Positions 27,513-42,336 of a stretch of 64,000 bases of DNA are shown here, one piece after another. The stretch is from contig JAIBBD010000003.1 of NCBI GenBank assembly GCA_019694855.1, positions 33,264-97,263 on the forward strand. Reading direction: 5' to 3'. The stretch comes from Dehalococcoidia bacterium. GTDB taxonomy: Bacteria > Chloroflexota > Dehalococcoidia > UBA2979. Below the pieces are notes generated by a model. The model was not told where the DNA came from and searched no databases. It worked only from the letters and a program-made list of their open reading frames with translations. The translations under genes were made by a program, and so were the position numbers. How positions within the stretch are numbered: the stretch's first letter is position 1; each line of letters starts with the position of its first letter.

Positions 27513-27523
27513 GAATTCTGCGT

Positions 27524-27552
27524 GTGGCCGGCGCGCACCTCGCGCCGGCCAC
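27524..27552 (+). terminator. GC-rich hairpin GTGGCCGGCGCG-cacct-CGCGCCGGCCAC downstream of the amine oxidase gene (no U tract)
   Basis: Perfect 12-bp stem, seen directly. Confidence 0.4.
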
Positions 27553-27829
27553 GGTGGGCGGCCCAAACAGCATGGCGAAAGGGGTGGAGAGCCCGCGAGG
27601 CGCCTCCCTCTGCCGGGCCCTCCGAGGCGCGAGCACCGGAGGCGCGTGGCGCTGTGCTCACACGTAACGTAATAGCTCAGTCAAGCATTGCCCCAGCGTA
27701 AGGTTCTGGATCGGCCCGGCGAAGACAGCGGGCGGCGTCGCCGCCGCATTGCGCCCGCTCGTCGGGAGCGGGACTGGTCGCCTCCCCTACCATCGAAGTC
27801 AGTCCCACATACCCTGATGAGGAGGCTCA

Positions 27830-29959
27830 GTGAACGAGGGGATACCGCTTCGCGTCTGGCCCGGCCGGCCCTTCCCCCTCGGCGCCTCCTTCGATGGCGC
27901 CGGCACCAACTTCGCGCTTTTTTCGGAGGTCGCCGAGCGCGTCGAGCTCTGCCTCGTTGACGATCAGGGCCGCGAGACCCGCGTCGATCTCCCCGAGGTG
28001 ACCAGCCTTTGCTGGCACGGCTACCTCCCTGACGTCTACCCCGGCCAGCGCTACGGCTTCCGCGTTCACGGCCCGTGGGACCCGGCCACTGGTCACCGCT
28101 GCAACCCCGCCAAGCTCCTGCTCGACCCCTACGCCCGCGCCATCGAGGGCTCCATCGAATGGAACCCAGCCCTCTACCCCTACAACCTGGGCGCCGAGGA
28201 CGACTCGCCGAACCTCGAGGACAGCGCCCCCTTCGTCCCGAAGGCCGTCGTCGCCAACCCCTTCTTCGACTGGGGCAACGACCGCCCCCCCTCCGTCCCG
28301 AAGCACAACACCGTCATCTACGAAGTCCACGTCAGGGGCTTCACCAGCCAGCATCCCGATCTCCCCGAAGAGATCCGCGGCACCTATGCCGCGCTCGCCA
28401 GTCCGCCGGTTGTCGCCTACCTCCAACAGCTTGGTGTGACGACCGTCGAGTTGCTCCCTGTCCACGAGTTCGTGCACGACCACGCCCTCATCGAGCGTGG
28501 ACTCCGCAACTACTGGGGCTACAACTCCATCGGCTTCTTCGCACCGCACCACGAGTACGCCCGCGGCATCGCGCCCGGCAACCAGGTCCTCGAGTTCAAG
28601 CAGATGGTGCGCGCTCTGCACGCCGCCGGCATCGAGGTCATCCTCGACGTCGTCTACAACCACACCGCCGAGGGCAACCACCTCGGCCCGATGCTTTCCT
28701 TCAAGGGCATCGACAATGCCGCCTTCTACCGCCTCGTCGCCGACGACCCGCGCTACTACATGGACTACACCGGCACCGGCAACACGCTGAACATGCGCAA
28801 CCCCTTCGTGCTCCAGCTCATCATGGACAGCCTCCGCTACTGGGTGACCGAGATGCACGTCGACGGCTTCCGCTTCGACCTCGCGGCGACCCTCGCTCGC
28901 GAGCTCCACGACGTCGACCGCCTCTCTGCCTTCTTCGACCTCGTCCAGCAGGACCCGATCGTGAGCCAGGTCAAGCTCATCGCCGAGCCATGGGATGTCG
29001 GCGACGGCGGCTACCAGGTCGGCAACTTCCCGCCCCAGTGGGCCGAATGGAACGGCAAGTACCGCGACACGGTGCGCGACTTCTGGCGAGGCGAGGACCA
29101 GACCCTCGCCGACTTCGCCAACCGCTTCACCGGCAGCTCCGACCTCTACCAGAACAGCCGCCGCTACCCCTCCGCCAGCGTCAACTTCGTCACCGCCCAC
29201 GACGGCTTCACACTCCGCGACCTCGTGTCCTACAACGAGAAACACAACGAGGCCAACGGCGAGGAGAATCGTGACGGCGAGTCGCACAACCGCTCATGGA
29301 ACTGCGGCGTCGAGGGCGATACGGACGACCCCGAGGTGCTCGACCTCCGCGCACGCCAGCAGCGCAACTTCCTCGCCACGCTCTTCCTCTCCCAGGGCAT
29401 TCCGATGCTCCTCCACGGCGACGAGGCCGGTCGCACCCAGTCCGGCAACAACAACGCCTATTGCCAGGACAACCAGACCTCGTGGTTCGACTGGTCCGCC
29501 GTCGATGAGTCCCTGCTCGAGTTCACCCGCCGCTTAATCGCCTTCCGCCGCGATCATCCCGTCTTCCACCGTCGCCGCTGGTTCCAGGGCCGTCCCATTC
29601 GAGGCGTCGGCCATGACATCGCCTGGTACAAACCTGGTGGCGGCGAGATGACCGACGAGGACTGGGACACCGGCTTCGCCAAGTCGTTGCTCGTTTACCT
29701 CAATGGCGAAGGCATCGCCGCCCCCGACGAGTGGGGCGAGCACGTCCACGACTCCAGCTTCCTCGTCTGCTTCAACGCCCACCACGAGGACATCGACTTC
29801 ACCCTCCCGGACATCGAGCCCGGCCTCCGCTGGACCGAGGCGTTGAGCACGCTGCCAGACGCCGCCGAACCCTCCCCCACGCCCGCCGCTTCGGCCGCGC
29901 CCATCTCCGTCGCCCCCCGCAGCATCCTCGTGCTCATTGGCGTCCCTGCCGAGGCCTGA
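27830..29959 (+). CDS. glgX: Glycogen debranching enzyme GlgX (GH13 isoamylase-type)
   Basis: N-terminal CBM48-like region. GH13 catalytic signatures (DVVYNHT, GFRFDLA, EPWD). GTG start with a GAGGAGG Shine-Dalgarno sequence. Confidence 0.9.
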   Translation: MNEGIPLRVWPGRPFPLGASFDGAGTNFALFSEVAERVELCLVDDQGRETRVDLPEVTSLCWHGYLPDVYPGQRYGFRVHGPWDPATGHRCNPAKLLLDPYARAIEGSIEWNPALYPYNLGAEDDSPNLEDSAPFVPKAVVANPFFDWGNDRPPSVPKHNTVIYEVHVRGFTSQHPDLPEEIRGTYAALASPPVVAYLQQLGVTTVELLPVHEFVHDHALIERGLRNYWGYNSIGFFAPHHEYARGIAPGNQVLEFKQMVRALHAAGIEVILDVVYNHTAEGNHLGPMLSFKGIDNAAFYRLVADDPRYYMDYTGTGNTLNMRNPFVLQLIMDSLRYWVTEMHVDGFRFDLAATLARELHDVDRLSAFFDLVQQDPIVSQVKLIAEPWDVGDGGYQVGNFPPQWAEWNGKYRDTVRDFWRGEDQTLADFANRFTGSSDLYQNSRRYPSASVNFVTAHDGFTLRDLVSYNEKHNEANGEENRDGESHNRSWNCGVEGDTDDPEVLDLRARQQRNFLATLFLSQGIPMLLHGDEAGRTQSGNNNAYCQDNQTSWFDWSAVDESLLEFTRRLIAFRRDHPVFHRRRWFQGRPIRGVGHDIAWYKPGGGEMTDEDWDTGFAKSLLVYLNGEGIAAPDEWGEHVHDSSFLVCFNAHHEDIDFTLPDIEPGLRWTEALSTLPDAAEPSPTPAASAAPISVAPRSILVLIGVPAEA

Positions 29960-30074
29960 GCGTCGGCGCGCTCGCCTCGCCGGCGCGGCGTCTGCAATTC
30001 CTGCGGCGGGCGCTGTTCCTCGTGCGCAACGCCTTTGCCCGTAGCCTCCGAAGCAAGCCCACGCAGGAGGAGAC

Positions 30075-30246
30075 ATGAACGACAACGACCAGCAGAAGCA
30101 GCTGAGGATGGCCGGCGGCGCCGGCCGGCATGGCGACCGGCGGCTTCCTCGGCTGGTCGATGGGCATGATGAGCGGCTCCATGATCGGATTCGTCGCCGG
30201 CCGCTGGACCGGCCTCATGATCCGCAAGAGCACGAAGCACGGGTAA
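30075..30246 (+). CDS. Probable small membrane peptide. The strong-RBS ATG at 30075 is in one frame, while a Gly-zipper hydrophobic peptide (MATGGFLGWSMGMMSGSMIGFVAGRWTGLMIRKSTKHG) is in the +1 frame from 30130 to the TAA at 30246. A possible frameshift lies in the GC repeat ggccggcggcgccggccggc
   Basis: Perfect AGGAGG-N6-ATG at 30075. The frame from 30075 gives an Arg-rich, implausible product. The +1 frame gives a plausible TM peptide ending at a stop just before the transporter gene. Confidence 0.35.
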
Positions 30247-30337
30247 CGGCCACACGATGGGCGAGCGGGTCATCGGCACTCGCTGTCTCGGGCGCGCCTC
30301 CGGTGGCACCCATGGGGGATGAACGCGCCGCGCTGAC

Positions 30338-32137
30338 GTGAGTGACTTCGTTTCTCCCGAGGCGAGACTATTCGCCATCATCGCGGTCGCGATCGCGCTG
30401 CTCGTCAGCGAGCGCATTCGCGCGGACCTTGTTGGGGTCCTCATCGTGGTCGCCCTCTGGGCCGCCCGCCTTCTCAACCCCGACGAGGCGCTCGCCGGCT
30501 TCAGCAGCGAGCCTGCCATCGCTGTCGCCGCCGTGTTCGTCCTCGGCGCGGGCCTCCTCGAGACCGGCGTCTCCGATGCCGCTGGCCGCCTGATCGCCCG
30601 CTGGTCAGGCCCCGGGTTGCTTCGCCCGCTCGCCTTGCTGATGGGCTCAGTCGGCCTCCTCTCCGCCTTTACACACCACGTCACGACTACCGCCAGCATG
30701 GTCCCCGTCGCGCTCGACCTCTCGAAGGAACGCGACATCCCGCCCTCGCGCCTGCTGATGCCGATCTCGTTCGCCGCCTCGCTCGGCACCACCATCACCA
30801 TCATCGGCGCCCCCGCCTTCCTCATCGCGAGCGACGCGCTCCAGGGCGCCGGCGAACCTCCGCTCGGTGTCTTCTCCGTCGCCCCCCTCGGCCTCGCGCT
30901 CCTCGCCGCCGGCGTGCTCTTCATGCTCCTCACCGGCCGCTGGCTGCTCCCCGACCGCCGAGGCGTCGAAGACCCGTCCGCCGGCTACCGCCTCGACGGC
31001 TACCTCACCGAGATCGAGGTCCAGCCCGGCTCGCCGCTCCTCGACAAGTCTGCCGAGGATCTCGCCACCGACCGCCGCTACGAATTCGAGGTCGTCGGCC
31101 GCATCCGAGACGGCTCGCGCGTCCCCGGCCGCTTCGCCGAGGGTGACCTCCAGGAAGGCGATGTCCTCCTCGTCCGCACGTCCCCGGAGCACATGCTCGC
31201 CGTCGGCGAGGAGCGCGGGATCGAGCTCGGCCCCACGAGCCAGTACGAGCGCGCTTCGGTCCCCAGGGACGCCGACGAAGAGGACGTCGAGGAACGCCTT
31301 GTCCAGGTCGTCGTCGCCGCCGCCTCGGACTTCGCTGGCCGCACCATCGCCCAGGTTGACTTCCGTCAGCGCTTCGGTGTCCTCGTCCTCGGTCTCTGGC
31401 GGCAGCGCGGCTGGCTCGCGGATCAGCTCGCCCACGTCCGGCTGCAGCCCGGCGATGTCCTCGTCGTCCAGGGCGACGAGGACGCCCTCGCGCGCCTCTC
31501 GGCCGACCGTGGCGTCCTGATGCTCGTTCCCTTCCAGGGCCGCGCCCGGGTGCTCCGCAAGCGCTGGCTCGCGCTCGCTATCCTGCTCGGCGCAATCGCC
31601 CTCGCCATCGCCGGCGCCCCGCTGCAGATGGCGATGCTCGTCGGAGCGGCCGCGATGGTCCTCACCCGTTGCGTGACCCCCGGCCAGGCCTACCGTGCCA
31701 TCGACCAGCGCGTCTTCGTCTTCATCGCGGGAGCGATCCCGCTCGGCGCCGCGATGGAGAAGACCGGCGCAGCCCGCACGATCGCCGAACTCCTGGAGCA
31801 GCCGCTCTCTGGCGCGACGCCCTTCATCGCGCTCCTCGCGATCTTCGTCGCCGTCGCCCTCGTCACCCAGTTCATGTCGGACGCCGCCACGACCGCGCTC
31901 TTTGCCCCCATCGCCCTGGGCCTGGCCGGCGCCATCGGCGTCTCCCCCACCGCCTGCGTCGTCACGGTCGCCGTTGGCTCCGTCGCCTCCTCGATCACGC
32001 CGCTCGGCCACCACGGCAACCTGCTCGTCTACGGCCCCGGCGGCTACCGCTTCAGCGACTTCGTCCGCGCCGGCACGCCGCTGACCCTTCTGGTCGGCAT
32101 CATCGCCGCCGCCGGCACCCCCCTCCTCTGGCCCTGA
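30338..32137 (+). CDS. DASS/SLC13-type anion transporter with two central TrkA-C domains
   Basis: 599-aa protein: N- and C-terminal polytopic halves flanking two TrkA_C-like soluble domains (...GDVLLVRTSPEHM..., ...GDVLVVQGDEDAL...). Confidence 0.85.
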   Translation: MSDFVSPEARLFAIIAVAIALLVSERIRADLVGVLIVVALWAARLLNPDEALAGFSSEPAIAVAAVFVLGAGLLETGVSDAAGRLIARWSGPGLLRPLALLMGSVGLLSAFTHHVTTTASMVPVALDLSKERDIPPSRLLMPISFAASLGTTITIIGAPAFLIASDALQGAGEPPLGVFSVAPLGLALLAAGVLFMLLTGRWLLPDRRGVEDPSAGYRLDGYLTEIEVQPGSPLLDKSAEDLATDRRYEFEVVGRIRDGSRVPGRFAEGDLQEGDVLLVRTSPEHMLAVGEERGIELGPTSQYERASVPRDADEEDVEERLVQVVVAAASDFAGRTIAQVDFRQRFGVLVLGLWRQRGWLADQLAHVRLQPGDVLVVQGDEDALARLSADRGVLMLVPFQGRARVLRKRWLALAILLGAIALAIAGAPLQMAMLVGAAAMVLTRCVTPGQAYRAIDQRVFVFIAGAIPLGAAMEKTGAARTIAELLEQPLSGATPFIALLAIFVAVALVTQFMSDAATTALFAPIALGLAGAIGVSPTACVVTVAVGSVASSITPLGHHGNLLVYGPGGYRFSDFVRAGTPLTLLVGIIAAAGTPLLWP

Positions 32138-32254
32138 CCCACCCTCATATCCGCGCCTGACCGCCCGACGAGAGGGTGTACGATGCGCTCCGGCCGCTCA
32201 GACGTCGGCTCGCCGACGAGCCGGCCCGAAGGCGCGCGAAGCGAGACACCCGCT

Positions 32255-32944
32255 ATGGCCCGGTCCGGCGACACCACCACCGATCTCGTCCACCGCGTGC
32301 CCCTGCTCGCGAGTCTCTCCGAGGAGGACATCCGCTCCCTCGCTCCCATCGCCGGCCGCCGTTCGTTCCGTCACGGCCACACGATCTTCCGCGAAGGAGA
32401 ACCGGGGGATTCCCTCTACATCCTGATCCGAGGGAGTGTCTTCATCACGATGCTCTCGAGCGACGGGGCGGAGAGCATCCTCGCGGTGCTACGCGGCGGC
32501 GATTGCCTTGGCGAACTCTCGTTACTGGACGGCTTCCCCCGCTCGGCTACCGCTCGCGCCGCCGAGGACGTCGACGCTCTCGTCGTGACCCGCGACCACT
32601 TCCAATCGTGGCTCGCCGATCACCACGCCGCCTCGCTCGCGCTGCTTCGGACGCTGAGCATGCGCATTCGCCGGACGAACGCCGCATTGGCCGATCGCAA
32701 CGCGCTCGACCTCTGGCAGCGGCTCGCCAAGCAGCTCCTCCTGCTCGCCGATGACCAGCCCCGCGCGTCAGCCTCCGACGGCACCGACCTCCGCGTGACG
32801 CAGCAGCAGCTCGCGGAGATGCTCGGCGTCACCCGCGAGGCCGTGAACAAGACGCTGCGCGAATTCGCACAGGCCGGCTGGATCGAACTCCGACGAGGGC
32901 TCGTCAGGATCTGTGACACCGCGAGCCTCGCGGAACAGTTGTAG
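32255..32944 (+). CDS. Crp/Fnr-family transcriptional regulator
   Basis: cNMP-binding-type beta-roll (GEPGDSLYILIRGSV...GELSLL) and a C-terminal HTH (TQQQLAEMLGVTREAVNKTLREF). An upstream GTG 32183 is an alternative start. Confidence 0.8.
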   Translation: MARSGDTTTDLVHRVPLLASLSEEDIRSLAPIAGRRSFRHGHTIFREGEPGDSLYILIRGSVFITMLSSDGAESILAVLRGGDCLGELSLLDGFPRSATARAAEDVDALVVTRDHFQSWLADHHAASLALLRTLSMRIRRTNAALADRNALDLWQRLAKQLLLLADDQPRASASDGTDLRVTQQQLAEMLGVTREAVNKTLREFAQAGWIELRRGLVRICDTASLAEQL

Positions 32945-33343
32945 CCGTCCATCGCACCTGGGCGGGCGCCGTCGCTAGACAAGCGGAATCAGGAAGCTGC
33001 CCCTCGCCTCCGCGGTGCGGCGCGCCGCATCGAGGGAGCGTAGGAACTGGTCCTGCCGGATCGCCCGCTCGAGCACTCCAGCGCCGTCGGCCGCGAAACG
33101 AGAGTCGTGTGTGGTTGCAGCGAGTTCCGCTCGGCTTCGGGATGCCGTCCCGCTGCCGGTCCTGACTTCGATCATGAGTGCCTCCAGCCCCGCTGGCAGC
33201 CCGAGGAGACTGCCCGTTGGCTGGAGCGTGTATCGAGCGTCGAACCGGTTCCATGAACTGGCGCACAGATCGCCGGACTCGCATCGATTCGTCCCTGCAG
33301 CCCCCGCCACTCCGGTGCGGCGACAACCCCCGGGAGGCCGTGC

Positions 33344-34227
33344 TCACACAGCGATCATCGCAGCCAGCTCGTGACCGAGGAGCTGCCTCACCAGCGCCCT
33401 CAAGTCGCCGGCAGGCGCCCAGACCTCGTCGATGTCCAGAAGCGCATTGGCCAGGGCTGCTCCCTCGGGTGTCGCCTGGTACCGCCGCCGGCGGATCGCC
33501 TCCGCGAGCTCTGCGGCGGCGTCCGCCGACGCGGGAAGCAAGCGCTCATCGATGCCCAGCAGCGAGCCGGCGACGTTCCAGCTGTGCGCGTAGTCATAGA
33601 GCGTCCGCGCGTCGACCTGGACCCCCACCCGAGGCAACCGGATCGCCGTCATCCATGAGAGCGTGAGAAGCGTGGCCGCCAGGTCCTCCTGGTTGAGGCG
33701 CGCCTCCCCCGAGGGCGATTCGGGGCGAGTGCCCGGCTCTCCACTCAGGCGCAGCGCGGCGTGTAACAGCCGCACTCGCTGGATCGCGCGACGCCCGTCC
33801 GCACCGTCGCCCAGGCCGCCGGGGCTCATCACCGAACGGACGAATTCGGCGGTGCGCCGAACTCGGCGCAGCGGATCGACGCCGAGCGTCGAATGTCGGT
33901 TTAGTTCCCGTGCCACGGCCGCGTTGCAGTACGACTCCGGAAGCGCCCCGAAGCCGAGCACCGTCATCACCGCCGCCGACTCCCGTTCGAACAACGCCTG
34001 CCCTCGTCCGACTGCGGCGACATCCGTCCAGTCGGGGAGGCGGCCCGTCGCGACGAGGTAGGAATCGATCGCCGGGTGCCTCGGAAACCGCTCGTTGAGT
34101 TCGGCGATGAGTTCGCCGACCACGGCCGGCTCCCGCCCACCGCCGAGGATGGCAAGCACGCATTCGTCGGCGACGGCATCGCCGGTCGCGCGAAGCTCAT
34201 CGAGTAACTCGTCCGAGATGTAGGTCA
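33344..34227 (-). CDS. MpaB/DUF2236-family (ER-bound oxygenase-like) protein
   Basis: DUF2236-like helical protein. ATG 34227 with a GGAGAG Shine-Dalgarno sequence. Convergent with the crp gene. Confidence 0.65.
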
Positions 34228-34321
34228 TTTGCTCTCCGTCTGAGTCCACCAGAAACGCTCAAAAGACGTGACCACTCTCCTGCACGTATAGTCGTCCGCA
34301 ACCGAGACTGACAAGGTCCCA

Positions 34322-37120
34322 ATGCCTGCTATTCGCCAGACATCGCTACTGTTTGCCGACATCGAGGATTCGACTCGAATAGCACAGCTCATTGCCGAAT
34401 CCGCCGGAGAAGTCGCCTACGCGGATTTCTCCCTCGCCTACGAATCCCTGCTCCGAGACGCCTGCTCCGCGCACCACGGAGCGGTCGGTGGGACGTGGGG
34501 TGACGACTTTTACGCAACCTTTAGCTCCCCGCGCGACGCCCTGGGAGCGGCGTTCGCCATTCAAATGGCCGCAGCCACGCACGACTGGCCGCACGGCGCT
34601 CGTCTCCGCATCCGCATTGGCCTGCACCACGGCCGTGTCATCGAGAGCTCCAACGGCCTCGTCGGCATCGAGCTCCACCGCGCGATGCGGATATGCAGCC
34701 TCGCGCTCGGCGCCGAAGTGGTCGCGTCGGCCGCCTTCGTCGAAGCCACCCGGGGAGAACTTCCAGCGAAGTACGCCGCGATCGACCTGGGACTCCGCAG
34801 TCTCAAGGGCTTCGCCTTCCCCGAGCCCCTGTTCCTCATCGCACGTGAGGGCTGGATGTCCCGGCGGGTCGGTGAACGCAACCCGCTCGGCGACTGGGAG
34901 CGCCCGCTCAACCCGATCGTGGGTCGGGAGTCCGAAATCGCCGCCTTGAGTGAACTGCTTCACAGACCAGACGTCCGGCTCGTCTCAGTCTTGGGGCCCG
35001 GAGGGGTGGGGAAGACCCGCCTCTGCGAGGAACTAACAGCGCTCGAACAGGAACGCTTTCTGGACGGGGTCTACATGGTCAACCTGAGTGCGGTCGAGGA
35101 TCCTGCCCTCGTCTCCCGCCGGACGGCCCAGGCTCTCGGCCTGACGCCCGAACAGGGACGAGGCGACGCCGACCAGATCGCTGACCTCCTTGCCGACCGC
35201 CAGGTCCTGCTCGTCTTCGACAATTTCGAGCACCTGCGGCCAGCCGCCACCTTCGTGCGCGACCTCCTCACCCGCAGCTCCCGAGTCAAAGCGCTCGTGA
35301 CGAGTCGCACTCCACTCGGCATCCGGGGCGAGCAGCGCTTCGAGCTCCTCCCCCTCGCGACGAGCCCCGAGGACCGAGGCCTCAGCGGCCAGCCCGCCCC
35401 CGCCGCCGAGCTGTTCATGCAGCGCGCCCTCGCCACGCGGCCGGCGTTGGCCCTTGACCCGGCCGACCGCTCATTCGTAGACGACATCTGCACCACGCTG
35501 GATGGTCTCCCGCTCGCGATCGAGCTCGCCGCCGCCCAGGTCGACAACATGTCGCTCGGCACGCTCGCCCGCGGCCTCCGTATTCACCCGCTCCGACTCC
35601 TGGTTGACCCGGATCAGGACTACCCGGCTCGCCAGGCCACCATGACCTCGACGGTCTCCTGGAGCTACCAGCTGATCGAGGACGAGCAGGATCGGGCGCT
35701 CCTGGATGCACTCGCGACCTTCTTCGGCAGCTTCTCCGCGCAACAGGCGGCCGACCTCCTCAGCCAGCTGGGCAGGCCATCACACCTCGACGATGTGACC
35801 TCCGCGATTGAGCGCCTGCGGCGCCGGTCGCTCGTCCAGGTCGTCCGTGAGGCTGAACCACGCCGCTACCGACTGCTCCGGGTGATCCGCGAATTCGCCA
35901 TGGCGCGCCTGGAGGATGCCGGACAGGCGGACGCGGCACGCCAGGCGCATCTGGCCGTGCACGTGCGAATCGCCCAGCAGGCCGAGTTCGCACTGCAGGG
36001 GGAATCTCAGCTCGAGGTCATGGACTCGCTCGCGCAGGACATCGAGAACATTCGCGGCGCCCTCGCCTGTGCGAGTTCTACCCCCGACCTGGCCCCGGCC
36101 GGCATTCGCCTCGCCACCTCGCTCACCGTCTACTGGTGGCATGGACATATCGAGGAGGGCTCTCACTGGCTCAGCAGCCTGCTCGCGCTGTTGCCGGCTC
36201 CATCGAAGGTCAATCCTCGCGAACTGGGACGAGTCGCGCAGGCCCATCTGACCGTCGCGCTGCTCCAGCTCTATGGCGGCTCGCTCGCCAACGCTCGCCA
36301 GCATGTGGATGACTGCCTCGCGATCAGCGATAGCAATTCCCGCACTCTCGCGATCCAGGCCCTCGCGACGGCGCTCGCCGGAATGATCGAGGCGGCCGGC
36401 GGGCAGAGCGCCCGCGGCGAACGGCTGTGCGGCGATGGCGTCGCACGGCTCGACGCCATGGCGTTGCACTGGATGCTCGCGATCGCGCTCGAATGGCGTG
36501 GCGAAGCCGCTCTTCGTGCCGGCCATGACGGCCTGGCGGAGACCTCCTGGGAACGCTCCGTATCACTCTTTCGCGAACTCGGCGATCGCTGGCTCCAGGC
36601 TGCTCCCCTCGCCCGCCTCGGCGATCTCGCCCTCGACCGCGGCGATCTCGCGCGCGCTGGAGAGCTGCTCGCCGAGAGCATCGCTCTGCTCCGCGCCGTC
36701 GGCACAGGCGCGGGCTCCGCCCAGGTGCTCGCCAGTCTCGGTCGCCTCGCGCGAGCGGAAGGACGTTCTCGCGATGCTCGCATGCTCGCCGCCGAATCCT
36801 TGCGAGCTGCCAGCGCCTCTGGCAGCTGGCTCGAGGTCGATCTGGGCCTGTCGCTCCTGGCCTCCCTTTGCTCCGACGGACCGCACCCAGCGGACGCCCT
36901 CGAGGCCTCCAGGCTGCTCGGTGCAGCCGCGCGCATCCGCACCGCCGCCGGGCCGCTGGCCTCCTCCACCATCCAGCGCGGTGACGCTCATCTGGCGGTC
37001 CTCCTCAGGACAACACTCGGTACCGCGGCCTTCGAGGCCGCGTGGGCGGAGGGCCACGCCTCGACCACCGTCGAGGCCGTGGCGCTGGCGATCGGGTTGG
37101 CCGGCAATGCAGACGAATAG
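34322..37120 (+). CDS. Class III adenylate/guanylate cyclase domain fused to NB-ARC/AAA STAND NTPase and C-terminal TPR repeats (no DNA-binding domain detected)
   Basis: N-terminus LLFADIEDSTRIAQ...GDDFYATF (CHD metal and substrate motifs). Walker A GPGGVGKTRL, Walker B LLVFDNFE. Long alpha-helical TPR-like C-terminus. 932 aa. Confidence 0.85.
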   Translation: MPAIRQTSLLFADIEDSTRIAQLIAESAGEVAYADFSLAYESLLRDACSAHHGAVGGTWGDDFYATFSSPRDALGAAFAIQMAAATHDWPHGARLRIRIGLHHGRVIESSNGLVGIELHRAMRICSLALGAEVVASAAFVEATRGELPAKYAAIDLGLRSLKGFAFPEPLFLIAREGWMSRRVGERNPLGDWERPLNPIVGRESEIAALSELLHRPDVRLVSVLGPGGVGKTRLCEELTALEQERFLDGVYMVNLSAVEDPALVSRRTAQALGLTPEQGRGDADQIADLLADRQVLLVFDNFEHLRPAATFVRDLLTRSSRVKALVTSRTPLGIRGEQRFELLPLATSPEDRGLSGQPAPAAELFMQRALATRPALALDPADRSFVDDICTTLDGLPLAIELAAAQVDNMSLGTLARGLRIHPLRLLVDPDQDYPARQATMTSTVSWSYQLIEDEQDRALLDALATFFGSFSAQQAADLLSQLGRPSHLDDVTSAIERLRRRSLVQVVREAEPRRYRLLRVIREFAMARLEDAGQADAARQAHLAVHVRIAQQAEFALQGESQLEVMDSLAQDIENIRGALACASSTPDLAPAGIRLATSLTVYWWHGHIEEGSHWLSSLLALLPAPSKVNPRELGRVAQAHLTVALLQLYGGSLANARQHVDDCLAISDSNSRTLAIQALATALAGMIEAAGGQSARGERLCGDGVARLDAMALHWMLAIALEWRGEAALRAGHDGLAETSWERSVSLFRELGDRWLQAAPLARLGDLALDRGDLARAGELLAESIALLRAVGTGAGSAQVLASLGRLARAEGRSRDARMLAAESLRAASASGSWLEVDLGLSLLASLCSDGPHPADALEASRLLGAAARIRTAAGPLASSTIQRGDAHLAVLLRTTLGTAAFEAAWAEGHASTTVEAVALAIGLAGNADE

Positions 37121-38090
37121 CGCCGCCACCTGGATACCTCGGGCGGCCGAACGCCGTGCGCGCGCGTTTGACGCCGCTTGCGCCCACGCTCGGACCCACC
37201 TCGAGGATGCACAGCAGTGCGACCTCGTCCTCTCCATTCTCCGCGCCGCCGCGGAACGCGCCGCCGCGCCGGAGGCCCCTGCGCTGTTCCCGCTCACGGT
37301 CCACGTGCCGCTCGCGGTGCACGCGGCTTTCGAGGGCCGCGACGAGCCCGCGCTTCCCATCGCCGCCGCCGGGCTCCTCGTCCTCCTGGGAGCCGACCTG
37401 CTCGACACGCTGATCGATGATGACCCCTTCAGCGGTCCGTTGACGCCCGCCGAACGGTTGCTCGCCGGTGCCGGGCTGGTCGGCCCGCTCCCGACCCTCC
37501 TGCTGTTATCGATGGACGTCCCGCCTGACATCGCTCGCGAAGCGGCTCGTAACCTGAACGATGCCGTCGTCACCATGGGTGCCGGACAGCTTGCGGACCT
37601 CCGCTCACCGGCCGCCCCGTACACGTCCCTTCCGGGTGTCGTCGAGACCGCCGTCTTCAAGAGCTCGCCTCTGGTTGCGGCACTCTGCCGGATCGCGGCC
37701 CGCCTCGCCGGCGGCACGCCGGAACAGGCTGCCGCGGCCGGCCGTCTTGGAGCGGCGCTCGGGCTCGCCGACCAGCTTCGGGGGGATTGGGCCGACCTCG
37801 GCCGCCTCGACGGCAGCAACGACCTGCGCACGGGCGCCGTGACAATTCCCGTCGCCCTCGCCTACGAGCGGCAGTCCCTGCATGGCGATGCCGCCCGCCA
37901 CGCCGATGGAGCCGCGCGCGATCGCGCCTGGTCGATGCTCGACCGGGACTCGCGAGCAGCCCTCGTCAATGCGCTGCACTTCTGCCATCAGGCCGCATCG
38001 GCCGCCATCGACGACCTCCGGCTCCCCGAGGCTTGGTCGGCCGACTTGAGCTTGCTCGCCAACGCCGTCTGCTACGAAGGAGGCGAATGA
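37109..38090 (+). CDS. Polyprenyl-synthetase (trans-isoprenyl diphosphate synthase fold) homologue with altered Asp-rich motifs
   Basis: ATG overlaps the stop of the STAND gene (stop/start coupling). Segment-by-segment similarity to GGPP/FPP synthases: ALPIAAAGLLVLLGADLLDTLIDDD (FARM region, RRG absent), GQLADL, KSSPLVAALCRIAARLAGG, LGLADQLRGDWADLG (SARM DDxxD replaced by GDWAD), GSNDLRTGAVTIPVALA. Confidence 0.6.
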
Positions 38091-38139
38091 GGAAACCCCT
38101 TCGTCCCACCCAGACAACGCATGTGAGGAGTGGCCAGTA

Positions 38140-38460
38140 ATGTCGGACTTCGCCGACCTCCGAGACCTCGCGCTGAAGCTCAGCAACGAATTGCAGTCGG
38201 GAAAGATCACCGTGGCGCAGCTGCCCTCGGTTCAGTACCAGACCGCCGGCCTGAACCCGTTCTTGACGGAGGTCGACAACCAGCTCTTTAGCGTGCACAC
38301 GCGCCATCTGACGTCTCAGGAGCGCGATCTGCTCACCTACTACTTTCACCGCAACACCCCGGTGAAGGATCCGAACGAGGTGGCGGAACGCGTGGCCTGG
38401 ATCGCCCGTGGACCCAACGCCTTCTACTGGGGCCCCTGGATGCCGTACCAGGACCCCTAA
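38140..38460 (+). CDS. Hypothetical 106-aa protein with aromatic/Pro-rich C-terminus (…GPNAFYWGPWMPYQDP)
   Basis: ATG with a GAGGAG Shine-Dalgarno sequence. No known domain recognised. Sits between the prenyl-synthase homologue and the S8 peptidase. Confidence 0.5.
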   Translation: MSDFADLRDLALKLSNELQSGKITVAQLPSVQYQTAGLNPFLTEVDNQLFSVHTRHLTSQERDLLTYYFHRNTPVKDPNEVAERVAWIARGPNAFYWGPWMPYQDP

Positions 38461-38503
38461 CCCCGTCAGCTAACCATGCACTGACCCGATGGGAGGACCC
38501 CGC

Positions 38504-39769
38504 ATGACAATCCATGCCATGATCGAATTCGACATCCGCGCGGACGACGCCGCCCTGGAAGATGCGATCCGAGAGCTAATCCGGGCGGGTCGCCGCGACG
38601 GCAGCTTCTCTCGCATCCCGCTGGGGGATCACACGATCGTCAGCGGCGCCTTCGACGAAGACCGCCTGGAGGACCTCGCCGGCGTCGAGCGCGTCGTGCG
38701 CATCTACGACGATCCCGAGCTCACACCCTTCGCACCGAACTTCGTCAACACCGTCGTTGACGAGGCGCACGGCGACATCTTCAGCATCGCCTCTGCCCTC
38801 ATGGGCCCGCTCTGGACACACGGCCACCGAGGCGAGGGGGTACGCATCGGGATCTGTGACACCGGCATCCACCACAAGGAGAAGAAGCTCGCCCTCGAGC
38901 CGACGCGGGGATGGACGCCATCTGCCGTCTTCTCGATCGGGGAGGATGTGTCACTCGTTCCACACGGCACGATGGTCGCTCATGACGCGCTCGCGATGGC
39001 CCCGCTGTCGGAGGTGCTGGACATCGGGCTGCTCAAGATGCCCCACGGCACGCTGGCCGGGGTCGCGGATTGGCGACTCTCAGTCGCAATGGACGCCTAC
39101 CGCGCCGTGATCGACGGCTTCGTCATGGATCGTCGAGAGGAGACATACGGTCTCGTCCTCTGCAACAGCTGGGGCATGCGCGACCCCGAGGTGCGCTGGA
39201 ACATCGGGCATTACTCCGACGATCCGACCCACCCCTTCACCCGGCTCGTGGTGGAGGCGATCGATCACGGGATCATCGTGGTGTTCGCCGCCGGCAACTG
39301 TGGCTCCAACGGCGGCAAGCCGTACAGCCCTCGGGGATTCTCGGGACCCGGCAACAGCATCTGGGGCGCGAACGGTCACCCGCGAGTCATCACCGTCGGC
39401 GCCGCGGACTGGAACCGGAACTGGATGGGCTACTCGAGCGAGGGGCCATCATCCCTCGCTCCAAACATGATCAAACCGGATGTCTGCGGTATCAGCCAGT
39501 TCTCGGGCTTGATCGACATCGTCGGCAAGCCCGACTTCTCCTACCCCGACGCCGGCACCTCGGCTGCCGCACCGATCGTTGCCGGCGGCCTCGCGGTACT
39601 GAAGGGCAAGTACCCGAAGATGACCCAGGACGTGGCCGCGGCAGTCCTGAGGGCGACCGCGGACCACCCGGCCTCGGTCAACGGCGCGCCCGCCGCCGAC
39701 AACCAGTACGGCTACGGGATCGTCAACTTCCAGAAGGCGGACCAGCTGCTGCACCAGATCTACCCGTAG
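38504..39769 (+). CDS. S8-family subtilisin-like serine peptidase without signal peptide, with N-terminal I9-like propeptide
   Basis: Catalytic triad motifs GICDTG (Asp), HGTMVAH (His) and GTSAAAP (Ser). No N-terminal hydrophobic signal. GGGAGG Shine-Dalgarno sequence before ATG 38504. Confidence 0.85.
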   Translation: MTIHAMIEFDIRADDAALEDAIRELIRAGRRDGSFSRIPLGDHTIVSGAFDEDRLEDLAGVERVVRIYDDPELTPFAPNFVNTVVDEAHGDIFSIASALMGPLWTHGHRGEGVRIGICDTGIHHKEKKLALEPTRGWTPSAVFSIGEDVSLVPHGTMVAHDALAMAPLSEVLDIGLLKMPHGTLAGVADWRLSVAMDAYRAVIDGFVMDRREETYGLVLCNSWGMRDPEVRWNIGHYSDDPTHPFTRLVVEAIDHGIIVVFAAGNCGSNGGKPYSPRGFSGPGNSIWGANGHPRVITVGAADWNRNWMGYSSEGPSSLAPNMIKPDVCGISQFSGLIDIVGKPDFSYPDAGTSAAAPIVAGGLAVLKGKYPKMTQDVAAAVLRATADHPASVNGAPAADNQYGYGIVNFQKADQLLHQIYP

Positions 39770-39873
39770 AGCGGAGATCGCCGCACCTGCCCGCCCGCCT
39801 CATGCTCCGCGGCTCCCGCCCCCCCTGTCGCGGAGCATGAGGCCGCCCCCTGCCGCCGAGGGCCCTTCAGCCC

Positions 39874-41358
39874 CTACGTGTCCAGCCGCACCGTCCCCGC
39901 GGAGCCGTCCACGATGACGAAGCTCCCATCCGGGATCTGCGAGGTCGCACCGGTCACCCCGACCACCGCCGGCAACCCCAGTTCCCGGGCCACGACCGCC
40001 GCGTGGGTCAGCACGCCCCCGGCCCCCGTCACCAGCGCGCCAATCACCCCGAAGTACGGCGTCCACTCTGGCGCGGTCGCCGCGCACACGAGCACATCCC
40101 CGGGCTCGAGCTGGTCCGCATCCTCGAGTGACGCGATCACACGCACGCGCCCTCGGTACACCCCGCTCGACCCCGCAATCCCGTGCCAGACGCCCGTCTC
40201 CTCATTCGGCCCGGTACCTGCCCCCAGCCGCGTCGGAGGAGCCACCGCGCGCCACCGCGCCTGCTGCGCCCGCCGCCGCCCGACGAGGTCCGCCGCGACC
40301 GCCTCCCCCGTTTCGAGGCCAGCCACCACCTCGTCGAGTGACAGGTAGAAGACGTCATCGGCCGCTTCGATCAGCCCTCGTTCCCGCATCGTTTCCCCGA
40401 CGCGCAGCCAGCGTCGCCGCGAGGCCGCGATCAGCCGCTGGTCGCAGTGCAGGTTGTGATCCTCAGAGACCGGCGCCAGCCACTGCGCCGCCTGCAGCAC
40501 GTTCCACCCCAACTCGTCGAGGCCAACGGTCGACAGCTCCCGCTCCAGCTCGATCCGCCGCGCCCGCGCACGCTCCTCCGCGGCGGCCGGATCGCGCTCC
40601 TCCCCCTCGATCGCCATCGCCGCCACCATCGCCAGCGGAATCGAGGCGTCCTCCCGCCACGTCGGCAGGTCGATCAGGTGCATCGTGGTCGTGTCCCCGC
40701 ACAGTTCGATCAGCGTTTCGAACTGCTCCCGGAACGCGGTCGTCGCCGCCGAGGTGCCCGTGGGCATGCGTCCGGCGGCCACGTCGCTTCGCACCGCCTC
40801 GTCCTCCGCCGCGATCCGCGACAGCCGCCAGAGCAACACCGTCCGTGTCGTCGAGGTGTTCGCGAACCCGGCCAGCAGCGCCAGCGCGTCGTCCCGCCGC
40901 TCCGCGCCGAAGCGCTCCGCGTGCAATTCGAGCCAACGCGAGGCCGCGGGCAGCACCACGCCCATCGTCTCCATGTGCACCCGGCCGAACGCCGAGTCGA
41001 ACCCTGCGTCGAGCGCGAGCAACCGTTCGCGCCACTGCCCCGCCGCCACCGAACCCGGCTCGAACGTATCGAACGCGACCCGCGCATCCTCGATCGCCGG
41101 GGACAGCCGCTCCTGCCACCCCTCGAGCGCGTCGAGGTCGAACGGCCCGCTTCGCGGCGGCATCTGCCACTCCCGCGAATACGAATAGCCATTGACGTAC
41201 AGCTGCCCCGGCAACCCGTCCGGCTGCCCGCGCTCGTTCAACGACCGCACGCTCCGCTCGAGCAGCGTCGCCGATCCCGGCAGGTGCTCGTTGTAGATCC
41301 AGCTGATCGCCTCGTACTCGGAGCCCGGCAACCTGAACTCGAGCCCACGTTCAGCCAC
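39874..41358 (-). CDS. PEP-utilising-enzyme mobile (swivel phosphohistidine) domain protein with N-terminal uncharacterised region
   Basis: C-terminal GGVLTHAAVVARELGLPAVVG (the conserved His of PEP synthase, PPDK and rifampicin phosphotransferase swivel domains). 494 aa. Confidence 0.8.
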   Translation of the reverse strand: MAERGLEFRLPGSEYEAISWIYNEHLPGSATLLERSVRSLNERGQPDGLPGQLYVNGYSYSREWQMPPRSGPFDLDALEGWQERLSPAIEDARVAFDTFEPGSVAAGQWRERLLALDAGFDSAFGRVHMETMGVVLPAASRWLELHAERFGAERRDDALALLAGFANTSTTRTVLLWRLSRIAAEDEAVRSDVAAGRMPTGTSAATTAFREQFETLIELCGDTTTMHLIDLPTWREDASIPLAMVAAMAIEGEERDPAAAEERARARRIELERELSTVGLDELGWNVLQAAQWLAPVSEDHNLHCDQRLIAASRRRWLRVGETMRERGLIEAADDVFYLSLDEVVAGLETGEAVAADLVGRRRAQQARWRAVAPPTRLGAGTGPNEETGVWHGIAGSSGVYRGRVRVIASLEDADQLEPGDVLVCAATAPEWTPYFGVIGALVTGAGGVLTHAAVVARELGLPAVVGVTGATSQIPDGSFVIVDGSAGTVRLDT

Positions 41359-41417
41359 GCTGCACCGCCTGTCGCCTCTTCAGGGGGATGGGTGGATCAT
41401 GTCCCCGACCGCTCCGA

Positions 41418-42275
41418 ATGACAACGAGGTGCAATCTGCACGTGCTCGCGCTCGGCGCCCCCGGCAGCGACGAAGTCGGCCTCGTTGGCGCGAAGGCCGC
41501 CAACCTCGCGCGCCTGGCCGGCGCCTGTCGGGTCCCGCCCGGCTTCGTCATCCCCGCACGCCCCGCCGCCGGACCGCTGACGGACGAGGTCTGGCACGCG
41601 GTCGTCGAGGCCTACCACGCGCTCGCGGCCGAGGTGGCAGACCCGGATGTCGCGGTCGCAGTCCGCTCCTCCGCCGTCGACGAGGACGGGGATGCAGCGT
41701 CCTTTGCTGGCCAGCACGCCACGATCCTCGGCGTGCGCGGTGAAACCGCCCTCCGTGCAGCCGTCATCGAGGTGCTCGCCTCCGCGGTCACACCGGCGGC
41801 GCAGGCCTACCGCGCGGCCCACAACCTTCCCGCCGAGGACGTCCGCATCGCCGTCCTCGTCCAGCAGCTCGTCCCCGCCGAAGTCTCGGCTGTCGCCTTC
41901 AGCCAGAACGTCGTCGCCGGCGACCCGGACGAGGTTGTCATCAATGCCAGCTGGGGGCTCGGCGAACCCATCGTCTCCGGGGAGGTCACCCCGGACACCT
42001 ACCTGGTGAGCGCCCTCGAGTTCACCATCCTGCGCCGCGATCTCGCCGACAAGACGACGATGCGCGTCCGTACCCCCGGCGGCGTCGCCACCCTCGCCGT
42101 CCCCGACCAGCTTCGCCGCACCCCCGCCCTGGCCGATGCGCAGGCGGTCGCCATCGCCCATCTCGCCTGCGACCTCGAACGCACGATGGGCTGGCCCGTC
42201 GACATCGAGTGCGCCTACGCCGGCGGCCTGCTCTACCTCCTGCAGTGCCGGCCGATCACCACGCGGGCGGCCTGA
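41418..42275 (+). CDS. PEP synthase/PPDK N-terminal ATP-grasp (nucleotide-binding) domain protein
   Basis: VGAKAANLARL resembles the PPDK_N GGKxANL motif and the 286-aa size fits the domain. Divergent from the swivel-domain gene. An upstream GTG 41388 is an alternative start. Confidence 0.7.
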   Translation: MTTRCNLHVLALGAPGSDEVGLVGAKAANLARLAGACRVPPGFVIPARPAAGPLTDEVWHAVVEAYHALAAEVADPDVAVAVRSSAVDEDGDAASFAGQHATILGVRGETALRAAVIEVLASAVTPAAQAYRAAHNLPAEDVRIAVLVQQLVPAEVSAVAFSQNVVAGDPDEVVINASWGLGEPIVSGEVTPDTYLVSALEFTILRRDLADKTTMRVRTPGGVATLAVPDQLRRTPALADAQAVAIAHLACDLERTMGWPVDIECAYAGGLLYLLQCRPITTRAA

Positions 42276-42336
42276 CCCGGAAACGAAGGGAGCCGGCGAC
42301 GCCGGCTCCCGTTCGACGACTCATCGGCCCGAGGCG

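What the first reader, a model, noticed from the sequence alone, without database searches (positions are those of the whole stretch)
39874..42275. Divergently transcribed split PEP-utilising enzyme: swivel phospho-His domain protein and separate ATP-grasp (PPDK_N) domain protein
PEP synthase, PPDK and rifampicin phosphotransferase-type enzymes normally carry the ATP-grasp nucleotide-binding domain and the phospho-His swivel domain on one polypeptide. Here the two are separate genes whose start codons face each other about 60 bp apart. The swivel protein has an additional roughly 350-aa N-terminal region of unknown function where a substrate-binding domain would be expected. This may be a two-component phosphotransferase (kinase) acting on an unknown small molecule, possibly an antibiotic-inactivating kinase or a partner of the adjacent S8/prenyl module.
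Basis: partly seen in the sequence, partly recalled or inferred. Interest (0 to 1): 0.5.

Follow-up and report, generated by a model that had tools for sequence, protein, structure and literature searches.

The report
Split two-subunit small-molecule dikinase
Two intact back-to-back genes in a Dehalococcoidia genome encode the two halves of an ATP-dependent kinase of the rifampin-phosphotransferase / phenol-kinase type; such two-subunit kinases are already characterised, so this is an ordinary new member whose substrate is unknown.

Summary
ORF 39874-41358 (-) encodes a 494-aa protein with a C-terminal phospho-His swivel domain. ORF 41388-42275 (+) encodes a stand-alone PPDK_N ATP-grasp of about 277-295 aa. 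Their starts face each other 29-83 bp apart. Both genes are intact, under purifying selection, and keep the catalytic residues.

The split is not new. Two-component dikinases of this design are biochemically characterised: PpsAB, CreHI, HpeHI and AcvAB. Stand-alone halves are very common in metagenomes.

This pair belongs to a separate, compact Chloroflexota clade. The two genes stay adjacent but are never co-directional: divergent here, convergent in some relatives. It is not an RPH, because Arg666 is Ser and the scores are far below cut-off. It is not in the phenol-kinase clade either, although it shares that clade's E-D-H-N active-site motif.

The dikinase pair persists without the S8/prenyl neighbours in most relatives, although the 106-aa + S8 genes do sit beside the swivel gene in the two lineages where they occur. 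The substrate is unknown. Verdict: new member of a known kind, low interest.

The parts
39874..41358 (-). Gene for the 494-aa (53.6 kDa) substrate-binding + phospho-His swivel subunit, the equivalent of HpeH/PpsA/CreH; GTG start at 41358, stop codon at 39874-39876
40204..41358 (-). RPH-type helical substrate-binding domain (about aa 1-385), with conserved W234-x-E236-D237 and S298-E299-D300-H301-N302; E299 (codon 40462-40464) corresponds to RPH-Lm Glu667
39877..40191 (-). C-terminal phospho-histidine swivel domain (about aa 390-494); catalytic His452 (codon 40003-40005) sits in T444-G-A-G-G-V-L-T-H452
   Evidence: PF00391 aa 418-488, E 1.8e-22. H452 aligns to RPH-Lm His825. H452 is invariant in 25 sequences. 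The T/SxxGGxxxH motif is defined in PMC12167813.
41388..42275 (+). Gene for the stand-alone ATP-grasp (PPDK_N) subunit, the equivalent of HpeI/PpsB/CreI. The longest ORF is 295 aa; the likely true start is ATG 41418 (285 aa, 29.5 kDa) or GTG 41442 (277 aa, 28.6 kDa)
   Evidence: PF01326 E 7.6e-70. K36/R93/T112/E274 correspond to RPH K22/R117/T136/E297. Homolog N-termini. AF2 pLDDT 87.3 with residues 1-16 below 50. Foldseek: RPH 5hv1 E 2.8e-22, HpeI 9goj E 1.6e-21, PEPS 2ols TM 0.83. dN/dS 0.20-0.29.
41359..41441 (.). Short divergent control region. It holds a conserved block (about 41363-41405) with a sigma-70-like promoter for the swivel gene (-35 TTGTCA 41424-41419, -10 CATGAT 41401-41396) and an SD-like GAAGAGG/AGGCGG leader
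   Evidence: Promoter scan: 1 site found against 0.1 expected. The block is nearly invariant in 5 lineages whose coding DNA is 77-81% identical. No Rfam match and no significant RNA fold.
42288..42310 (.). GC-rich 10-bp hairpin between the convergent ATP-grasp and DsbA-like genes; a likely terminator
   Evidence: Terminator-like scan. Only a consensus match.

Best explanation
The two genes encode the two subunits of an RPH/PpsAB-type small-molecule dikinase. The overall reaction is substrate-OH + ATP + H2O -> substrate-phosphate + AMP + Pi.

Inferred mechanism, by homology with PpsAB, HpeHI and RPH:
1. The ATP-grasp subunit (about 28-30 kDa) binds MgATP.
2. The C-terminal swivel domain of the 54-kDa subunit docks on it in trans.
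3. His452 attacks the beta-phosphate and becomes pyrophosphorylated.
4. The gamma-phosphate is hydrolysed.
5. The phospho-His domain swings back onto its own helical substrate-binding domain. There the Glu299-centred S-E-D-H-N site helps transfer the phosphate to a hydroxyl group of a small molecule.

Shown here: domain content, fold, catalytic residues, purifying selection, conserved linkage of the two genes, and co-divergence of the two proteins.

Inferred: the trans interaction, the chemistry, and the substrate class.

The substrate is unknown. The active-site motif resembles that of the phenol/hydroxyphenylethanone kinases rather than RPH, so a phenolic or similar small hydroxylated compound is the best guess (about 30% on its own). 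The two genes are expressed from a shared, conserved 59-83 bp divergent control region rather than as an operon.
For: - Domains: PF01326 alone on one protein, PF27448 + PF00391 on the other.
- Fold of the ATP-grasp: best matches are RPH, HpeI and PEPS.
- Catalytic residues conserved: K36, R93, T112, E274; H452 = His825; E299 = Glu667.
- Both genes are under purifying selection.
- The pair is adjacent in the window, in the near-identical L092, and in six further relatives at 49-84% identity, and the two proteins diverge in parallel.
- Two-subunit enzymes of this design are biochemically proven, including abolition of activity by mutating the His.
- The motif S/T/V-E-D/E-H-N/K is shared with the HpeH-like clade (VEDH[NK]F), whereas true RPHs have REYPKY.
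- A 39%-identical relative (L004) lies among ring-hydroxylase, Rieske, LigXa and amidohydrolase_2 genes.
Against: - No biochemical data exist.
- The pair is never in an operon in this clade. Relatives at 39-48% identity (L004-6, L088, L089) have no ATP-grasp gene within 6-8 kb, so partnership is not obligatory family-wide.
- No catabolic genes typical of the phenolic systems (carboxylase, phosphatase) flank the pair.
- Both subunits are markedly smaller than the characterised ones: 54 + about 29 kDa against 71 + 40 kDa.
- The protein falls outside the HpeH-like clade in an NJ tree without support values.
Confidence: 0.75

Rival explanations
1. The two proteins are not dedicated partners. The ATP-grasp protein serves several swivel proteins encoded elsewhere, or the 494-aa protein works alone as a phosphate-exchange enzyme or uses another donor. 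In that case the adjacency is mostly inherited synteny.
For: The genes are not co-transcribed: they are divergent or convergent in every relative. 'Orphan' swivel proteins without a nearby ATP-grasp exist at 39-48% identity. Stand-alone ATP-grasps of about 280 aa are very numerous (3972 hits at E<=1e-10 among the scored candidates). HpeH alone catalyses phosphotransfer between phospho-substrate and substrate.
Against: The adjacency survives an inversion (divergent versus convergent) and complete turnover of the flanking genes down to 49% identity. The distances of the two proteins rank the relatives in the same order. No second swivel or grasp gene lies in the 64-kb window.
Confidence: 0.1
2. 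A split rifamycin-inactivating phosphotransferase, i.e. an antibiotic-resistance enzyme.
For: RPH-Lm is the best structural and sequence match of the large subunit. The His motif GGVLTH resembles the RPH motif GGLMTH. MFS transporter genes lie next to the pair in L002/3.
Against: RPH Arg666 is essential in RPH-Lm and is Ser298 here and throughout the clade. Lys670 is Asn. NCBIfam RIF_Ptrans_rph scores 125.6 and 151.7 bits against a cut-off of 999. Identity to RPH is only 20% over the aligned structure. Sequence homology to the first 145 residues of the RIF-binding domain is undetectable.
Confidence: 0.05
3. The dikinase modifies the product of the adjacent genes. One possibility is phosphorylation of a Tyr or another hydroxyl in the invariant aromatic C-terminal tail of the 106-aa protein, which the S8 peptidase then processes, as in a RiPP-like pathway.
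For: The 106-aa + S8 genes lie next to the swivel gene in every case where their context is visible: the window, L092/L093 and L090. The tail GPNAF[YH]WGPW[MLF]PYQDP is invariant at 48-51% overall identity. Tyr is a phenol, and the active-site motif is of the phenol-kinase type.
Against: That amounts to only two independent lineages, both close relatives, so shared ancestry of a variable island explains it. The genes are convergent, not co-transcribed. The dikinase pair exists without the module in L085, L001, L086, L087, L094, L095 and L002. No member of this enzyme family is known to me to act on peptides (own knowledge).
Confidence: 0.04
4. A PigC/RedH-type ATP-dependent condensing enzyme in split form. 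It would activate a carbonyl or hydroxyl group by phosphorylation and then couple it to a second substrate.
For: The ATP-grasp matches the NCBIfam PigC and RedH models at 164 and 162 bits, and the swivel subunit at 81-91 bits. The domain set is the same.
Against: All scores are far below the cut-offs (1300-1350). PigC and RedH are single polypeptides. No biosynthetic cluster is conserved around the pair.
Confidence: 0.04
5. The two ORFs are decayed remnants of a once-fused gene.
For: Fused ATP-grasp-SBD-swivel genes are common among more distant relatives (29 of 84 loci).
Against: There are no internal stops. Each half is conserved over its full length. dN/dS is 0.16-0.29. The catalytic residues are intact. 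The genes lie on opposite strands. The same split is conserved down to 49% identity.
Confidence: 0.01

Closest known systems
Two-component phenolic dikinases: HpeHI (Rhodococcus rhodochrous GD02), PpsAB (Thauera aromatica phenylphosphate synthase), CreHI (Corynebacterium glutamicum), AcvAB (Sphingobium sp. SYK-6)
   Same: Same division of labour: a stand-alone PPDK_N ATP-grasp subunit plus a subunit made of an RPH-like substrate-binding domain and a C-terminal His swivel domain. Same T/SxxGGxxxH motif. Same E-D-H-N/K motif at the position of RPH Glu667. The large subunit relates structurally to RPH in nearly the same way as reported for HpeH.
   Different: - Gene order and regulation: the HpeH-like loci sampled here have swivel then grasp, co-directional, and acvABCDEF is an operon with catabolic genes. 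Here the genes are divergent with no catabolic neighbours.
- Size: 54 + about 29 kDa here against about 71 + 40 kDa.
- The ATP-grasp has 57 residues between the Lys and Arg motifs, against 105 in HpeI.
- The protein lies in a different clade of the NJ tree.
- Similarity to proteins of that clade is only 30-33%, over the C-terminal 260 residues.
- Residues -2 and -1 before the His are L-T, not M-S or M-C.
Rifampin phosphotransferase RPH (Listeria monocytogenes, PDB 5FBS/5FBT/5HV1)
   Different: RPH is one polypeptide of 867 aa. Arg666 is Ser and Lys670 is Asn here. The RIF-binding domain is about 40 aa longer in RPH. Scores are far below the NCBIfam RPH cut-off.
PEP synthase / pyruvate phosphate dikinase
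   Same: The ATP-grasp and swivel domains are homologous. PEPS 8a8e is the best sequence match of the ATP-grasp (E 6.9e-40). The ping-pong phospho-His chemistry is the same.
   Different: There is no PEP/pyruvate-binding TIM-barrel domain. The swivel domain is C-terminal rather than central. The regulatory Thr before the His is absent (Leu at -2).

Membership tests
Two-component small-molecule dikinases (PpsAB/CreHI/HpeHI/AcvAB type) | ATP-grasp (PPDK_N) domain on its own polypeptide | tested here: met
   PF01326 is the only domain on the 277-295-aa protein. The fold is confirmed.
Two-component small-molecule dikinases (PpsAB/CreHI/HpeHI/AcvAB type) | Second polypeptide = RPH-like substrate-binding domain + C-terminal swivel domain with catalytic His in T/SxxGGxxxH | tested here: met
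Two-component small-molecule dikinases (PpsAB/CreHI/HpeHI/AcvAB type) | ATP-phosphate-binding residues intact (RPH K22, R117, T136) | tested here: met
   K36, R93 and T112, plus E274 = E297. All are invariant in 15 homologs.
Two-component small-molecule dikinases (PpsAB/CreHI/HpeHI/AcvAB type) | Belongs to the clade of characterised members (these are 40-45% identical to each other) | tested here: not met
   Identity to proteins of the swivel-then-grasp clade is 30-33% over aa 233-492 only. The protein forms a separate clade in the NJ tree. The ATP-grasp is no closer to HpeI (126 bits) than to PEPS (140 bits), whereas an ATP-grasp from the swivel-then-grasp clade scores 217 bits to HpeI. The sequences of HpeH, PpsA and CreH themselves were not available.
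Two-component small-molecule dikinases (PpsAB/CreHI/HpeHI/AcvAB type) | Both genes co-transcribed within an aromatic-catabolic operon | tested here: not met
   The genes are divergent or convergent in relatives. The neighbours are DsbA/DsbB and a variable island.
Two-component small-molecule dikinases (PpsAB/CreHI/HpeHI/AcvAB type) | ATP -> AMP + Pi with phosphorylation of a phenolic hydroxyl, requiring both subunits | not testable with these tools
   Needs enzyme assays.
Rifamycin-inactivating phosphotransferase (RPH) | Score above the NCBIfam NF041857 cut-off (999 bits); single three-domain polypeptide | tested here: not met
   125.6 bits (swivel subunit) and 151.7 bits (ATP-grasp). The domains are on two genes on opposite strands.
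Rifamycin-inactivating phosphotransferase (RPH) | Arg666-Glu667 pair in the substrate-binding domain, critical for the second phosphotransfer | tested here: not met
   Glu is conserved (E299), but Arg666 is S298 in the whole clade. True RPH-like fused proteins have REYPKY.
PEP synthase / PPDK | PEP/pyruvate-binding TIM-barrel domain (PF02896) and a central swivel domain | tested here: not met
   No such domain on either protein. PEPS and PPDK structures align only to the swivel domain, about 100-125 residues.

The most novel reading that the evidence does not exclude
The dikinase is not a free-metabolite kinase. Instead it phosphorylates a hydroxyl group, for example the Tyr in the invariant ...WGPW-x-PYQDP tail, of the neighbouring 106-aa protein, which the adjacent signal-less S8 peptidase processes. 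That would be a peptide-modifying use of the RPH/PpsAB enzyme family. The evidence only fails to exclude this. The small protein has just three homolog clusters, and all those with visible context sit beside the swivel gene. Most relatives of the dikinase pair lack the module.
Probability: 0.04. Interest if true: 0.7.

Novelty: new member of a known kind. Interest (0 to 1): 0.2.

Why it matters
It matters modestly. The pair represents an uncharacterised, compact Chloroflexota clade of two-subunit dikinases, and the nearest database relatives are overwhelmingly split rather than fused. Knowing its substrate would widen the known chemistry of a family currently limited to phenol-type compounds and rifamycins. 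The minimal subunit sizes (54 + about 29 kDa) could make it a convenient model for studying how a swivel domain is charged in trans. It does not change the current picture of the family: the split architecture, its mechanism and its relation to RPH are already published.

Tried and rejected
- Decay of a fused gene: rejected by the intact ORFs, conserved residues and dN/dS.
- Rifamycin kinase: rejected as a membership claim on Arg666 and the NCBIfam scores.
- Functional context: I looked for a conserved partner around 15 relatives of the clade. Nothing beyond the pair itself is conserved. DsbA/DsbB/SCO1 are shared only with the closest relatives.
- Paralogs: I looked for a second swivel or grasp gene in the window. 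There is none.
- RNA element: the very conserved intergenic block has no Rfam match and folds no better than shuffles, z +1.16. I read it as promoter/operator DNA.
- Inverted-repeat search of the intergenic region found only a weak palindrome inside the swivel coding sequence.
- HpeH, PpsA and CreH sequences could not be fetched. Their clade was identified indirectly through gene order, the HpeI match and the MSH motif.
- A complex prediction could not be run with the tools available.
Full report
WHAT IS THERE

The window is about 70% GC. ORF 39874..41358 on the minus strand encodes 494 aa. ORF 41388..42275 on the plus strand encodes up to 295 aa. Both show the strong third-position GC bias of real genes in this genome: GC3 0.90 and 0.87, against GC2 0.52 and 0.53.

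Pfam finds only PF00391 (PEP-utilizers swivel domain, aa 418-488, E 1.8e-22) on the first protein. It finds only PF01326 (PPDK_N ATP-grasp, E 7.6e-70) on the second.

The GTG start of the swivel gene at 41358 is supported by 24 homologs, which all begin MAE or MVAE.

The ATP-grasp gene probably starts later than 41388, at ATG 41418 or GTG 41442. Three results point this way:
- Homologs begin a few residues before the conserved L-x-LG.
- The 99%-identical database protein P0121 is called at the GTG.
- Residues 1-16 of the longest ORF are disordered in the model.

The distance between the starts is thus 59-83 bp, or 29 bp for the longest ORFs.

THE 'UNKNOWN' N-TERMINAL REGION

Homologs of the 494-aa protein carry the precomputed Pfam domain PF27448, 'Rph_4th', in front of the swivel domain. 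The same domain sits in full-length rifampin-phosphotransferase-like proteins (PF01326 + PF27448 + PF00391).

The region is therefore the RPH-type substrate-binding domain.

ARE BOTH HALVES FUNCTIONAL?

The RPH residues shown by mutagenesis or structure to position ATP are Lys22, Arg117, Thr136 and Glu297 (PMC4844700). They align to K36, R93, T112 and E274 of the window protein. All four are invariant in 15 homologs.

The ATP-grasp model (pLDDT 87.3) matches RPH (E 2.8e-22), HpeI (E 1.6e-21) and a PEP synthase (TM 0.83). It is a minimal version of the fold. It has 57 residues between the Lys and Arg motifs, against 95 in RPH, 105 in HpeI and 130 in PEPS 8a8e (counted from the alignments).

In the large subunit, His452 aligns to the catalytic His825 of RPH. 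It sits in T-G-A-G-G-V-L-T-H, which fits the T/SxxGGxxxH motif. Glu299 aligns to RPH Glu667.

Against four to five orthologs, dN/dS is 0.16-0.21 for the swivel gene and 0.20-0.29 for the ATP-grasp gene in the close comparisons. The 'decayed remnant' refutation fails.

IS THE SPLIT CONSERVED, AND IS IT UNUSUAL?

It is conserved. I examined 95 related loci. Within the window's own clade (Chloroflexota/Dehalococcoidia metagenome-assembled genomes), the arrangement of the two genes is as follows.

| Arrangement | Loci (identity of the swivel protein to the window) |
|---|---|
| Adjacent, divergent | Window; L092 (99.3% DNA identity to the window); L085 (84%); L001 (80%); L086 (78%); L094 (65%); L002/3 (49%, with an extra 115-aa swivel-only ORF in between) |
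| Adjacent, convergent | L087 and L095 (53%) |
| No ATP-grasp within 6-8 kb | L088, L089, L004-6 (39-48%) |
| Co-directional | None |

The distances of the two proteins rank the relatives in the same order, as expected for co-inherited partners.

It is not unusual. Among 84 loci from a species-level genome collection, classified by tblastn and ORF continuity:
- 29 are fused.
- 12 are split with swivel then grasp.
- 7 are split with grasp then swivel.
- 3 are divergent.
- 32 have no ATP-grasp nearby.

All 120 best relatives of the ATP-grasp are stand-alone proteins of 225-333 aa, among 3972 hits at E<=1e-10. Of the 150 best 50%-identity representatives of the large subunit, 88 are 450-620 aa, that is, without an ATP-grasp. 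There are 506 representatives at E<=1e-30.

The architecture is also biochemically characterised. [quoted passage not shown] PpsAB (phenol) and CreHI (4-methylphenol) are named as homologs. A His-to-Gln mutation abolishes activity, and the crystal structure of HpeI is 9GOJ (PMC12167813). AcvAB of Sphingobium is a further example (bioRxiv 10.1101/2022.04.28.489975).

WHERE DOES THIS PAIR SIT IN THE FAMILY?

In a neighbour-joining tree of the shared region (no support values, so indicative only), the window clade is separate from two groups.

The first is the fused RPH-like proteins. The second is the swivel-then-grasp clade, which I equate with the PpsA/CreH/HpeH type on three grounds:
- It has that gene order.
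- It has the G-G-x-M-S-H motif.
- One of its ATP-grasps has HpeI as its best PDB match, at 217 bits.

The window ATP-grasp scores 140 bits to a PEP synthase, 126 to HpeI and 107-110 to RPH.

NCBIfam places neither protein above any cut-off. For the swivel protein, RIF_Ptrans_rph scores 126 bits against a cut-off of 999, and PRK08296 scores 126 against 578.

One feature is informative. At the position of the RPH Arg666-Glu667-x-x-Lys670 site, genuine RPH-like fused proteins have R-E-Y-P-K. The window clade has S-E-D-H-N, and the HpeH-like clade has V-E-D/G-H-N/K. Arg666 is essential in RPH. The enzyme therefore fails an RPH membership test. It shares its second active site with the phenol-type kinases, even though it is not in their clade.

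CONTEXT AND THE S8/PRENYL IDEA

On the ATP-grasp side, DsbA-like, DsbB and SCO1/LpqE genes are shared with L001, L085 and L092.

On the swivel side, synteny breaks exactly at the end of the gene:
- L085 continues directly with a CitMHS transporter that is 84% identical to window 30338-32137.
- L001 and L086 continue with DNA matching window positions up to about 27500.
- The window carries an extra 7.7-12.4 kb. It holds a Crp-family regulator, an MpaB-like protein, a STAND-type regulator, a polyprenyl-synthase-like ORF, a 106-aa protein and an S8 peptidase. Its GC content is locally lower, 0.63-0.66.

A strain 99.3% identical to the window from 37820 onwards is unrelated upstream of that point, which lies inside the prenyl-like ORF. 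The prenyl and regulator genes are therefore not linked to the dikinase.

The 106-aa + S8 pair is different. The small protein has only three homolog clusters in the whole database. In the two lineages where context is visible (L092/L093 and L090), it sits in the same position, convergent with the swivel gene. That is too few independent cases, in too close relatives, to call a functional link. Most relatives of the dikinase pair lack the module. I record the link as the low-probability novel reading.

REGULATION

The region upstream of the swivel start contains a block of about 45 nt (about 41363-41405). This block is nearly invariant in five lineages whose coding DNA is only 77-81% identical.

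It includes the -10-like CATGAT. A conserved TTGTC lies at -35 with a 17-nt spacer. This is the only sigma-70-like site found in the scan, against 0.1 expected. An SD-like GAAGAGG/AGGCGG follows.

The block has no Rfam match and no significant RNA fold. I interpret it as a shared promoter/operator for the divergent pair; this is an inference.

CONCLUSION

The finding is a real and intact two-subunit dikinase. Its design and mechanism are already established for PpsAB, CreHI, HpeHI and AcvAB, and for the fused homolog RPH. It is a new, compact, non-operonic member from Chloroflexota with an unknown substrate. The active-site motif points weakly towards a phenolic-type substrate and away from rifamycins. 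It is neither a rifamycin kinase nor a demonstrable partner of the neighbouring S8/prenyl genes. Interest is low.

Noticed in passing
window 38140-38460 (+) and 38489-39769 (+); L090 49-1699; L092 2021-3650: The 106-aa protein has only 3 homolog clusters among 5.8 billion proteins. Its aromatic C-terminal tail GPNAF[YH]WGPW[MLF]PYQDP is invariant at 48-51% overall identity. It is always followed by a signal-less S8 peptidase. With the polyprenyl-synthase-like ORF upstream it recalls ComQ/ComX-type prenylated peptide pheromone systems. That resemblance is from memory only and was not tested.
   Followed up: partly
window ~37107-38090 (+): A polyprenyl-synthase-like ORF overlaps the stop of the upstream STAND regulator. 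The matches are weak (PF00348 29.6 bits; NCBIfam family-2 encapsulin cargo polyprenyl transferase E 2e-9), and I saw no obvious canonical DDxxD motifs in the translation. L092, a 99.3%-identical strain, diverges completely upstream of 37820, inside this ORF.
   Followed up: partly
window 27514-39873: A variable island lies directly after the 3' end of the swivel gene. L085 joins the swivel gene to the CitMHS gene (window 32139). L001 and L086 join it to the amine-oxidase region (window ~27500). The island content differs in each relative: CYTH-CHAD + PPK1 in L086, nothing extra in L001.
   Followed up: yes
window ~41363-41405: An intergenic block of about 45 nt is nearly invariant across five lineages whose coding DNA is 77-81% identical. 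It contains -35 TTGTC and -10 CATGAT. There is no Rfam hit and no significant fold.
   Followed up: yes
L002 7518-7865 and L003 7518-7865: In a 49%-identical relative, a separate 115-aa ORF consisting only of a PEP-utilizers swivel domain lies between the divergent ATP-grasp and swivel genes.
   Followed up: no
L004, L005, L006, L088, L089: These are 'orphan' full-length relatives (39-48% identity) with no ATP-grasp gene within 6-8 kb. L004 lies among FAD ring-hydroxylase, Rieske, LigXa_C, cupin and amidohydrolase_2 genes, an aromatic-catabolic setting.
   Followed up: partly
L087 11564-13825; L095 4159-5668; L094 3047-3727: Low-molecular-weight phosphatase (LMWPc) genes lie next to or near the dikinase pair in three relatives. 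In L087 and L095 they are followed by an SBF-family gene, and in L087 the first LMWPc protein also has weak HTH-domain hits. The set looks to me like an arsenic-resistance-type gene group (my reading, not tested).
   Followed up: no
proteins P0256, P0263, P0268 and others: Very long representatives (1100-2650 aa, one of 4906 aa) match the query in 3-6 separate stretches at the swivel domain. They appear to be proteins with several phospho-His swivel domains.
   Followed up: no
window 16945-22566 (-): A 1873-aa ORF with gene-like codon bias (GC3 0.89).
   Followed up: no
window 34322-37120 (+): A 932-aa regulator-like protein combines an adenylate/guanylate-cyclase domain, an AAA/NB-ARC (STAND) ATPase and TPR repeats. 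It lies at the head of the co-directional prenyl-like / 106-aa / S8 gene string.
   Followed up: no
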